Source: Escherichia coli (lineage in GTDB: Bacteria > Pseudomonadota > Gammaproteobacteria > Enterobacterales > Enterobacteriaceae). Taken from it: DNA of 64,000 bases. Shown piece by piece: positions 26,001-29,000 of the stretch. The position numbers were made by a program. The stretch lies in the NCBI RefSeq assembly GCF_045037415.1, contig NZ_CP173438.1. One strand, 5' to 3'. Positions within the stretch are counted from its first letter, which is position 1; each line of letters opens with the position of its first letter.

Positions 26001-29000
26001 TCCGACGTGACGGTTAATGGCAATCTGACCAATACGTCCGGTGCTGTCAGTCTGCAAAATGGCATCGCTGGCGACACGCTGACGGTAAATGGTGATTATA
26101 CCGGCGGCGGTACGCTACTGCTCGACAGCGAATTAAACGGCGATGACTCGGCAAGCGACCAGTTGGTGTTGAACGGTAATACTGCTGGCAATACCACGGT
26201 TGTGATTAATCCCATTACAGGGATTGGTGAGCCGACATCTACAGGTATTAAAGTGGTTGATTTCGCAGCTGATCCCACGCAGTTTCAAAACAATGCGCAG
26301 TTCAGTCTGGCAGGAAGCGGCTACGTCAATATGGGGGCGTATGACTACACGCTGGTGGAAGATAACAACGACTGGTATCTGCGATCACAAGAAGTCAATC
26401 CGACGCCGCCGCCTGATCCAGACCCGACTCCAGATCCTGATCCCACGCCGGATCCCGACCCAACCCCCGACCCTGAACCTACGCCTGCTTACCAGCCGGT
26501 GTTGAATGCCAAAGTTGGTGGATATTTTAATAACCTACGTGCGGCAAATCAGGCATTTGTGATGGAGCGACGCGATCACGCAGGTGGCGATGGTCAGACG
26601 CTGAATTTACGCGTTATCGGCGGGCGTTATCATTACACGGCGGCAGGGCAGTTGGCTCAGCATGAAGACACTTCTACGGTGCAGCTTAGCGGCAACCTGT
26701 TTAGCGGGCACTGGGGTGATGATGGCGAGTGGATGCTTGGGATTGTTGGTGGCTACAGCGATAACCAGGGCGACAGCCGCTCGAATATGACCGGAACTCG
26801 CGCCGATAACCAGAACCGCGGTTATGCCGTTGGGCTGACCTCAAGCTGGTATCAGCACGGTAATCAGAAGCAGGGGGCCTGGTTGGATAGCTGGCTGCAA
26901 TATGCGTGGTTTAACAATGATGTTTCCGAACAAGACGATGGAGTGGATCATTACCACTCGTCGGGGATTATCGCCTCGCTGGAAGCCGGTTATCAGTGGT
27001 TACCGGGGCGTGGTGTGGTGATTGAACCGCAGGCGCAGGTGATTTATCAGGGCGTGCAGCAGGATGATTTTACCGCCGCTAACCATGCGCGCGTGTCACA
27101 ATCGCAGGGTGATGATATTCAGATGCGGTTGGGTTTACACAGCGAATGGCGTACTGCTGTTGGTGTCACGCCAACGTTAGATCTGAATTATTATCACGAT
27201 CCCCATGCGACGGAAATTGAAGAGGATGGCAGCACTATCAGTGACGATGCGGTGAAGCAACGGGGTGAAATAAAAGTGGGAATAACGGGCAATATCAGTC
27301 AGCGAGTTTCGCTGCGCGGCAGCGTGGCGTGGCAGAAAGGGAGTGATGATTTTGCCCAGATGGCAGGGTTTTTGTCGATGACAGTGAAATGGTAATCGCT
27401 GTCTGACCGGCACTGTTGCCGGATGCGGCGTAAACGCCTTATCTGGCCTACGGGGAGCATTTGTAGGCCTGATAAGACGCGGCAAGCGTCGCATCAGGCT
27501 TGGCGCGGTTGCCGGATGAATCCAAACAACAACCTCACTTATTCTGCGTATGCAGCATATAGTTCACATCCACGCCGGGGCCGAGCTTAAAGGTGTTAGT
27601 GATAGGGTTGTAATGCAGCCCGGTCATATGCCGTTCTTTAAGACTGGTCTGATCCACCCAGCCCAGCAATTCTGCCGGTTTAATAAACTTCTTCACATCA
27701 TGTGTACCTTTAGGCACCATGCGCAAAATATATTCAGCACCAACCACCGCCATCAGCCATGACTTGCCGTTGCGGTTAAGCGTCGAGAAAAAGACATCGC
27801 CGCCCGGTTTCACCAGTTGCGCACAGGCTCTGACCACTGACTGAGGATCGGGGACGTGCTCCAGCATCTCCATACAGGTCACCACGTCATACTGTCCGGC
27901 ATGTTTTGCCGCGTGCTCTTCCACGGTTTCCTGCACGTAATCCACCTGAATGCCGCTTTCCAGTGCGTGCAGTTTTGCCACCTGCAATGGCTCAAAGCCC
28001 ATATCCAGACCGGTCACCGTCGCGCCCTCCCGCGCCATACTCTCGGCCAGAATGCCGCCGCCACAACCGACATCGAGCACCTTTTTGCCAAATAAACCGC
28101 CAGCACGCTCGGCAATATAGCCCAGACGCAGCGGGTTAATGCGGTGCAGCGGTTTGAACTCACCTTCAAGATCCCACCAGCGGGAGGCGACGGCTTCAAA
28201 TTTAGCGATCTCTTCGTGGTCTACGTTGTGGTTTACCGGCGATTTTTCGGCATTCATTGGCACTTCTACTCCGTAATTGGCAAGACAAACGAGTATATCA
28301 GGCATTGGATGTGAATAAAGCGTATAGGTTTACCTCAAACTGCGCGGCTGTGTTATAATTTGCGACCTTTGAATCCGGGATACAGTAGAGGGATAGCGGT
28401 TAGATGAGCGACCTTGCGAGAGAAATTACACCGGTCAACATTGAGGAAGAGCTGAAGAGCTCCTATCTGGATTATGCGATGTCGGTCATTGTTGGCCGTG
28501 CGCTGCCAGATGTCCGAGATGGCCTGAAGCCGGTACACCGTCGCGTACTTTACGCCATGAACGTACTAGGCAATGACTGGAACAAAGCCTATAAAAAATC
28601 TGCCCGTGTCGTTGGTGACGTAATCGGTAAATACCATCCCCATGGTGACTTGGCGGTTTATAACACGATCGTCCGTATGGCGCAGCCATTCTCGCTGCGT
28701 TACATGCTGGTAGACGGTCAGGGTAACTTCGGTTCCATCGACGGCGACTCTGCGGCGGCAATGCGTTATACGGAAATCCGTCTGGCGAAAATTGCCCATG
28801 AACTGATGGCCGATCTCGAAAAAGAGACGGTCGATTTCGTTGATAACTATGACGGCACGGAAAAAATTCCGGACGTCATGCCAACCAAAATTCCTAACCT
28901 GCTGGTGAACGGTTCTTCCGGTATCGCCGTAGGTATGGCAACCAACATTCCGCCGCACAACCTGACGGAAGTCATCAACGGTTGTCTGGCGTATATCGAT

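What the first reader, a model, noticed from the sequence alone, without database searches (positions are those of the whole stretch)
28650..28664. gyrA carries the classic fluoroquinolone-resistance pair S83L + D87N
In the gyrA reading frame codon 83 is TTG (Leu) and codon 87 is AAC (Asn); the QRDR reads [19 protein letters not shown]. Wild-type E. coli GyrA has Ser83 (TCG) and Asp87 (GAC). Each change is a single transition, and together they are the hallmark genotype of high-level quinolone-resistant lineages. This marks the source as a drug-exposed or clinical-type strain rather than K-12.
Basis: partly seen in the sequence, partly recalled or inferred. Interest (0 to 1): 0.85.

Follow-up and report, generated by a model that had tools for sequence, protein, structure and literature searches.

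The report
Known fluoroquinolone-resistance gyrA allele (ST131)
The window's DNA gyrase gene carries the two textbook point mutations (Ser83Leu, Asp87Asn) that stop fluoroquinolone antibiotics acting on the enzyme, and it is letter-for-letter the allele of the pandemic E. coli ST131 clone, so the call is correct and medically relevant but already known.

Summary
gyrA is at 28404..31031 (+). Codon 83 (28650-28652) is TTG (Leu) and codon 87 (28662-28664) is AAC (Asn). K-12 has TCG and GAC, so each change is one transition.

The whole 64 kb matches the pandemic E. coli ST131 clone. It differs at 2 bases from O25b:H4-ST131 strain 4433. It also differs at 2 bases over 42.6 kb from JJ1886.

The same gyrA backbone also exists, nucleotide-perfect, as wild type and as S83L-only. 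Against the wild-type strain CD306, 42.6 kb around gyrA differs at only 4 bases, and two of these are the resistance changes. They are therefore point mutations on the native allele, not imported DNA.

The pair is common: 1,701 of 5,426 complete E. coli genomes (31%) carry it, on several gyrA backbones.

[quoted passage not shown] The double-mutant enzyme no longer responds to ciprofloxacin.

One caveat applies. In isogenic K-12 the gyrA pair alone gives an MIC of only 0.38 µg/ml, and parC S80I is needed to reach 32 µg/ml. parC and parE lie outside the window. The near-identical genome 4433 carries ParC S80I+E84V and ParE I529L.

Verdict: already known, low novelty.

The parts
28404..31031 (+). 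gyrA coding sequence (DNA gyrase subunit A, 875 aa plus stop)
   Evidence: ORF. NCBIfam TIGR01063 scores 1306 bits against a cutoff of 877. Pfam finds PF00521 at residues 32-507 plus six PF03989 blades. Annotated as gyrA in the co-linear ST131 genome. The sequence is 100% identical to gyrA of JJ1886 and other genomes.
28602..28721 (+). Quinolone-resistance-determining region (codons 67-106)
   Evidence: Coordinates computed. The QRDR boundaries of codons 67-106 come from established knowledge. Only codons 83 and 87 are altered at the protein level.
28650..28652 (+). Codon 83, TTG = Leu (S83L; C->T at 28651)
   Evidence: K-12, CD306 and SE15 have TCG.
28662..28664 (+). Codon 87, AAC = Asn (D87N; G->A at 28662)
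   Evidence: K-12, CD306 and SE15 have GAC.
28767..28769 (+). Catalytic Tyr122 codon (TAT), preceded by Arg121; intact
   Evidence: Residue check and sequence. The role of Tyr122 as the DNA-cleaving residue is established knowledge.
30885..30887 (+). Codon 828, TCG = Ser (A828S relative to K-12); a lineage polymorphism, not a resistance change
   Evidence: It is also present in the quinolone wild-type gyrA of CD306 and SE15, because the reverted allele matches them perfectly.

Best explanation
This is the chromosomal gyrA gene of an E. coli ST131 clade C (H30R-type) strain. It carries the target-site fluoroquinolone-resistance allele known in the ST131 literature as gyrA1AB. Two independent point mutations (TCG->TTG for S83L, GAC->AAC for D87N) arose stepwise on the lineage's own gyrA backbone and were fixed by fluoroquinolone selection. 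Ser83 and Asp87 lie next to the DNA-cleavage site. They anchor the water-Mg2+ bridge through which the quinolone keto-acid group is held and positioned in the gyrase-DNA cleavage complex. Replacing them with Leu and Asn removes both anchors, so the drug no longer stabilises cleaved complexes. The enzyme remains functional: catalytic Arg121/Tyr122 are intact, and published measurements show little or no fitness cost. Shown here: the genotype, its backbone, the lack of an imported tract, its lineage identity and its frequency. Taken from published experiments: the biochemical mechanism, the MIC effects and the order of mutations. Inferred: that this particular source strain is phenotypically high-level resistant. 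That also requires topoisomerase IV (parC) mutations, which lie outside the window.
For: Genotype and reference comparison. Family identity of the protein. Lineage: gyrA is 100% identical to JJ1886, JJ1887, MNCRE44 and the O25b:H4 strain, the 64-kb window is 2 SNPs from O25b:H4-ST131 strain 4433, and it is 2 SNPs in 42.6 kb from JJ1886. Stepwise de novo origin: the both-reverted allele is nucleotide-perfect in at least 40 genomes including SE15 and CD306, the S83L-only intermediate is nucleotide-perfect in at least 40 genomes, and the 42.6 kb around gyrA differs from CD306 at only 28651, 28662, 32108 and 35900. Recurrence and selection: 1,701 of 5,426 genomes carry L83+N87. The window's QRDR string occurs in 1,370 genomes, yet only 566 genomes have gyrA at least 99% identical to the window's, so the pair sits on several unrelated backbones. 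[quoted passage not shown] MIC and fitness: PMC2714960, Table 1. Mutation order S83L -> parC S80I -> D87N, and 73% of 195 resistant clinical isolates carrying the pair: PMC5400412. Clade C is defined by gyrA1AB and parC1aAB: PMC4850260 and PMC5023239. The proxy genome 4433 carries ParC S80I+E84V and ParE I529L.
Against: No phenotype is available for the source strain. parC, parE, fimH and the MLST loci are not in the window, so both 'high-level resistant' and 'ST131-H30R' rest on near-identity to reference genomes, not on direct observation. The gyrA pair alone gives only low-level resistance in K-12 (0.38 µg/ml, PMC2714960). Clade labels for SE15, CD306 and JJ1886 come from my own knowledge and the literature, not from the database records.
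Confidence: 0.95

Rival explanations
1. The resistant gyrA allele was imported by homologous recombination from another resistant lineage and did not arise by point mutation in this lineage.
For: Recombinational acquisition of QRDR alleles has been proposed for other E. coli clones (my own knowledge, not tested here). The same 31-nt QRDR string occurs on many backbones.
Against: The window's gyrA backbone is nucleotide-identical to the wild-type allele of SE15 and CD306 apart from the two sites. There are no other differences within gyrA, and only 2 other SNPs in 42.6 kb of flanks against CD306. The S83L-only intermediate exists on the same backbone. An imported tract would bring linked synonymous differences, such as the 67 seen against K-12.
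Confidence: 0.02
2. The two substitutions are sequencing or assembly errors in this window.
For: None specific. One other base in the window (32108) is unique among 5,426 genomes, so the assembly does contain at least one unverified singleton.
Against: The full 2,628-nt allele is identical in at least 30 listed independent complete assemblies. The 31-nt string around the two codons occurs in 1,370 genomes. Two random errors landing on exactly the two canonical resistance codons is about a 1e-7 event.
Confidence: 0.01
3. The gyrA pair by itself makes the strain high-level fluoroquinolone resistant, with no other loci required.
For: The double-mutant enzyme is insensitive to ciprofloxacin in vitro (PMC9917921).
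Against: In isogenic MG1655, S83L+D87N gives 0.38 µg/ml, the same as S83L alone. Adding parC S80I gives 32 µg/ml (PMC2714960). Once gyrase is protected, topoisomerase IV becomes the limiting target. D87N is selected after parC S80I (PMC5400412).
Confidence: 0.04
4. Leu83/Asn87 is a neutral lineage polymorphism that hitch-hiked with a successful clone and has no causal role in resistance.
For: Another non-synonymous change in the same gene, A828S, is exactly such a neutral lineage marker.
Against: Wild-type, single-mutant and double-mutant forms all exist on one backbone. The pair recurs on unrelated backbones. Isogenic constructs and purified enzymes show a causal effect (PMC2714960, PMC9917921).
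Confidence: 0.01

Closest known systems
gyrA1AB allele of E. coli ST131 clade C / H30R (for example JJ1886)
   Same: The full 2,628-nt coding sequence is identical. The 42.6 kb of flanking sequence differs at 2 bases from JJ1886. It has S83L+D87N, which PMC5023239 defines as allele 1AB.
   Different: Nothing within gyrA differs. Outside gyrA, the window carries a private yfaA T310M change at 32108 and a sub-lineage SNP at 35900 that JJ1886 lacks.
Wild-type E. coli K-12 MG1655 gyrA (b2231)
   Same: Same gene, same length and same neighbours (yfaL-ubiG-gyrA-yfaA-yfaT). The protein is identical at 872 of 875 residues.
   Different: S83L, D87N and A828S, plus 67 synonymous differences (2.7% of nucleotides), consistent with a different phylogroup.
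gyrA1 (wild type) and gyrA1A (S83L only) alleles on the same backbone (for example SE15 and CD306 for wild type)
   Same: The backbone is identical at all other 2,626 or 2,627 positions.
   Different: They lack one or both resistance substitutions, and represent the ancestral and intermediate steps.
Equivalent serine/acidic-residue mutations in other type IIA topoisomerases (E. coli ParC S80/E84; the equivalent gyrase and topoisomerase IV residues in other species)
   Same: [quoted passage not shown] The ST131 proxy genome has ParC S80I+E84V.
   Different: These are different enzymes or species. In E. coli, gyrase is the primary quinolone target and topoisomerase IV the secondary one. In Gram-negative gyrase the bridge appears to act mainly in positioning the drug, not in binding it (PMC9917921).

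Membership tests
DNA gyrase subunit A (GyrA, NCBIfam TIGR01063) | Full-length match to the equivalog HMM above its curated cutoff, and scoring above the ParC models | tested here: met
   TIGR01063 scores 1306 bits (cutoff 877). The Gram-negative ParC model scores 576.6 bits, below its cutoff of 628.9.
DNA gyrase subunit A (GyrA, NCBIfam TIGR01063) | Domain architecture: N-terminal breakage-reunion domain plus a six-bladed C-terminal beta-pinwheel | tested here: met
   PF00521 at residues 32-507 and six PF03989 repeats at 538-839.
DNA gyrase subunit A (GyrA, NCBIfam TIGR01063) | Catalytic Arg121-Tyr122 and the GyrA-box motif (QRRGGKG) in the first C-terminal blade | tested here: met
   R121 and Y122 are present. 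'[11 protein letters not shown]' is present in the translation. The significance of the motif is established knowledge.
DNA gyrase subunit A (GyrA, NCBIfam TIGR01063) | Conserved chromosomal context of E. coli gyrA (ubiG upstream and divergent, yfaA downstream) | tested here: met
   The gene order matches K-12 and the ST131 genomes.
Target-site quinolone-resistance allele gyrA S83L+D87N (ST131 'gyrA1AB') | Leu at residue 83 and Asn at residue 87, with Ser and Asp in the susceptible reference | tested here: met
   Allele definition from PMC5023239.
Target-site quinolone-resistance allele gyrA S83L+D87N (ST131 'gyrA1AB') | Nucleotide identity with the allele of reference ST131 clade C genomes | tested here: met
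   100% identity over 2,628 nt (4854 bits) to JJ1886, JJ1887, MNCRE44, uk_P46212 and others.
Target-site quinolone-resistance allele gyrA S83L+D87N (ST131 'gyrA1AB') | Raised fluoroquinolone MIC in the carrying strain | not testable with these tools
   This needs susceptibility testing of the isolate. Published isogenic data: 0.38 µg/ml for the pair alone and 32 µg/ml with parC S80I (PMC2714960).
E. coli ST131 clade C (H30R) lineage | Near-identity of core chromosome sequence to ST131 clade C genomes | tested here: met
   2 SNPs in 64,000 bp against O25b:H4-ST131 strain 4433, and 2 SNPs in 42,628 bp against JJ1886. The best 25-kb hits include several records labelled O25b:H4-ST131.
E. coli ST131 clade C (H30R) lineage | Seven-locus MLST profile (adk, fumC, gyrB, icd, mdh, purA, recA) equal to ST131, and the fimH30 allele | not testable with these tools
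   None of these loci lies in the window, which spans arnC to napF.
E. coli ST131 clade C (H30R) lineage | Partner alleles parC1aAB (S80I+E84V) and parE I529L | tested here: inconclusive
   These loci are not in the window. They are present in the near-identical proxy genome 4433, which suggests but does not prove the same for the source.

The most novel reading that the evidence does not exclude
The evidence does not exclude two mildly novel readings. First, the source may be a so-far unsampled ST131 clade C sub-branch, because it carries a yfaA T310M change found in none of 5,426 complete genomes. Second, the S83L+D87N gyrase, beyond blocking the drug, might subtly change supercoiling-dependent gene expression in a way that contributed to this clone's success. 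The second is a published hypothesis and cannot be tested from sequence.
Probability: 0.1. Interest if true: 0.3.

Novelty: already known. Interest (0 to 1): 0.1.

Why it matters
In practice, the finding types the window's source as a member of, or very close relative of, the pandemic multidrug-resistant E. coli ST131 clade C. It predicts fluoroquinolone treatment failure if the usual parC partner mutations are present. Scientifically it adds nothing new. The allele, its mechanism, its order of acquisition, its low fitness cost and its epidemiology are all extensively published, and about 31% of complete E. coli genomes in RefSeq carry the same pair.

Tried and rejected
1. Recombination import. 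I rejected this after reverting the two codons and finding perfect matches in SE15 and CD306, and after finding only 4 SNPs in 42.6 kb against CD306.

2. Exact source identification. No genome in the collection matches the 25-kb core perfectly. The best hits score 46161 bits, which corresponds to one mismatch. The base at 32108 is absent from all 5,426 genomes. The source is therefore not in that collection, or the base is an error.

3. Genotype counting. The 31-nt exact probes leave 587 of 5,426 genomes unclassified. These carry other residue-87 or residue-83 alleles, or other synonymous backgrounds, and I did not resolve them.

4. Other QRDR positions (67, 81, 82, 84, 106, 119). All are wild type.

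5. Rfam scan of the whole window. It returned only MicF and two naRNA4 elements, with nothing related to gyrA.

6. Structure prediction and fold search. I did not run these because E. coli GyrA already has solved structures.

Full report
**Observation**

The window contains a 2,628-nt ORF at 28404..31031 on the + strand, encoding an 875-aa protein. Counting codons from the ATG at 28404, codon 83 occupies 28650-28652 and reads TTG (Leu). Codon 87 occupies 28662-28664 and reads AAC (Asn).

I fetched gyrA (b2231) of K-12 MG1655 for comparison. It has the same length and differs at 70 nucleotides. Only three of these change the protein:
- S83L (TCG->TTG, C->T at 28651)
- D87N (GAC->AAC, G->A at 28662)
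- A828S (GCG->TCG at 30885)

Other residues known to be involved in quinolone resistance (A67, G81, D82, A84, Q106, A119) are wild type, and catalytic R121/Y122 are intact.

**Identity of the gene**

- The protein scores 1306 bits against the NCBIfam GyrA equivalog TIGR01063 (cutoff 877).
- It scores below cutoff on the ParC models.
- It has the expected PF00521 domain plus six PF03989 blades.
- It contains the GyrA-box QRRGGKG.
- It sits between ubiG and yfaA, as in K-12.
- E. coli GyrA has many solved structures, including 6rks, 3nuh and 1ab4.

**Source of the window**

The gyrA sequence is 100% identical (4854 bits, the score of a perfect match) to that of JJ1886, JJ1887, MNCRE44, uk_P46212, the O25b:H4 strain and many other human isolates. 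A 25-kb segment centred on gyrA finds its best matches, each with one mismatch, in genomes several of which are labelled O25b:H4-ST131.

Laid against O25b:H4-ST131 strain 4433, a blood isolate from Houston, the entire 64,000-bp window is co-linear from arnC to napF and differs at two bases only:
- 32108, in yfaA
- 55824, where strain 4433 has a private ompC nonsense codon

Against JJ1886, 42,628 bp around gyrA differ at two bases, 32108 and 35900. The window is therefore a chromosome segment of ST131 clade C or a very close relative.

**De novo mutation or import?**

I reverted the two codons in silico and searched again.
- The fully reverted allele (S83, D87) is present, nucleotide-perfect, in at least 40 complete genomes. 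These include SE15 and CD306, which from my own knowledge are ST131 clade A and clade B strains.
- The S83L-only intermediate is also present, nucleotide-perfect, in at least 40 genomes.
- Across 42,628 bp around gyrA, the window differs from CD306 at only four positions: 28651, 28662, 32108 and 35900.
- Across the same span it differs from SE15 at ten SNPs plus one 24-bp indel.

There is no block of linked differences of the kind an imported allele would carry. Compare the 67 synonymous differences against K-12. The two resistance changes are therefore point mutations on the lineage's native allele. Under uniform placement, two of four SNPs falling on these two codons has a probability of about 1e-7.

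**How common is the pair?**

I used 31-nt probes that megablast can match only if codons 83, 85 and 87 are exact. Among 5,426 complete E. coli genomes the counts were:

| Genotype | Codon 85 GTT | Codon 85 GTC | Total | Share |
|---|---|---|---|---|
| L83+N87 | 1,370 | 331 | 1,701 | 31% |
| Wild type (S83+D87) | 2,014 | 639 | 2,653 | 49% |
| L83 only | 413 | 72 | 485 | 9% |
| Not classified | | | 587 | 11% |

Only 566 genomes have a gyrA at least 99% identical to the window's. Most of the 1,370 genomes sharing its QRDR string therefore carry it on other backbones. The pair has been fixed repeatedly in unrelated lineages. RefSeq complete genomes are biased towards clinical and resistant isolates, so 31% is not a natural prevalence.

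**Mechanism (from the literature)**

[quoted passage not shown] This has been tested directly for E. coli gyrase:
- GyrA S83L and GyrA D87N each strongly reduce ciprofloxacin-induced DNA cleavage.
- The S83L/D87N enzyme shows essentially none, even at 500 µM.
- Ciprofloxacin can still compete with a quinazolinedione for the enzyme, so in this enzyme the bridge mainly positions the drug and contributes less to binding it (PMC9917921).

Ciprofloxacin MICs in isogenic MG1655 strains (PMC2714960, Table 1):

| Genotype | MIC (µg/ml) |
|---|---|
| Wild type | 0.016 |
| gyrA S83L | 0.38 |
| gyrA D87N | 0.25 |
| gyrA S83L+D87N | 0.38 |
| gyrA S83L+D87N + parC S80I | 32 (relative fitness 1.01) |

The usual order of acquisition is gyrA S83L, then parC S80I, then gyrA D87N. 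In pooled published collections, 73% of 195 resistant clinical isolates carry S83L+D87N (PMC5400412).

For ST131 specifically, clade C is characterised by the alleles gyrA1AB and parC1aAB. These were acquired before the C1/C2 split, dated to about 1987, around the time fluoroquinolones were introduced in 1986 (PMC4850260). Allele 1A is S83L and allele 1AB is S83L+D87N (PMC5023239).

**Partner loci**

parC and parE are not in the window. In the proxy genome 4433, ParC carries S80I and E84V and ParE carries I529L relative to K-12, together with other substitutions that I take to be lineage polymorphisms but did not test. This is the expected H30R set. For the window's source it remains an inference.

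**Verdict**

The gyrA pair alone is not sufficient for high-level resistance. The 'drug exposure' it records is that of the lineage's ancestor. This is a textbook, extensively characterised resistance allele in a well-known pandemic clone. It is clinically meaningful but not novel.

Noticed in passing
window 32108 (yfaA codon 310): The window has ATG (Met) where strain 4433, JJ1886, CD306 and SE15 have ACG (Thr). A 31-nt exact probe centred on this base finds no match in any of 5,426 complete E. coli genomes. It is either a private mutation of the source or an assembly error.
   Followed up: yes
window 35900 (alpha-2-macroglobulin family gene yfaS, 33512..38026, codon 797): A C->T change gives R797C (CGT->TGT). 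It is shared with strain 4433, and most likely with the other best 25-kb hits. It is absent from JJ1886, CD306 and SE15, so it looks like a marker of a sub-branch within ST131 clade C.
   Followed up: partly
window 33512..38026: The alpha-2-macroglobulin family gene (yfaS) is an intact ORF of about 1,500 codons here and in the ST131 genomes. K-12 MG1655 annotates yfaS as a pseudogene.
   Followed up: no
window 55075..56196 (ompC), position 55824: ompC is intact in the window (Tyr250, TAC). The closest genome, strain 4433, has TAA at this codon and is annotated as an ompC pseudogene with an internal stop. Porin loss there is private to that isolate.
   Followed up: partly
window 10092..11321: An rpnE/yfaD-like gene annotated 'ISNCY family transposase' is followed by a truncated fragment (10092..10325). 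Segment 10210-10327 is a ~96% copy of 10489-10606. SE15 has 24 extra bases at 10215.
   Followed up: partly
window 54648..54741 (-) and 50797..50987 (+): Rfam finds MicF RNA upstream of ompC, and two tandem naRNA4 elements in the rcsC-rcsB intergenic region.
   Followed up: no
window 30885 (gyrA codon 828): The A828S difference from K-12 is also present in the quinolone wild-type gyrA of SE15 and CD306. It is a lineage polymorphism, not part of the resistance genotype.
   Followed up: yes
E. coli genome collection: One gyrA match, carrying the L83/N87 string, lies on a record classed as a plasmid. At least one genome has two gyrA places. One of the 5,426 genomes has no gyrA match at all. These are probably assembly or classification oddities.
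   Followed up: no
L006 19609..21867 (parC of proxy strain 4433): ParC S80I is encoded by ATT against K-12's AGC, a two-base difference. This implies a different synonymous Ser codon (probably AGT) in the ancestral background of this lineage.
   Followed up: no
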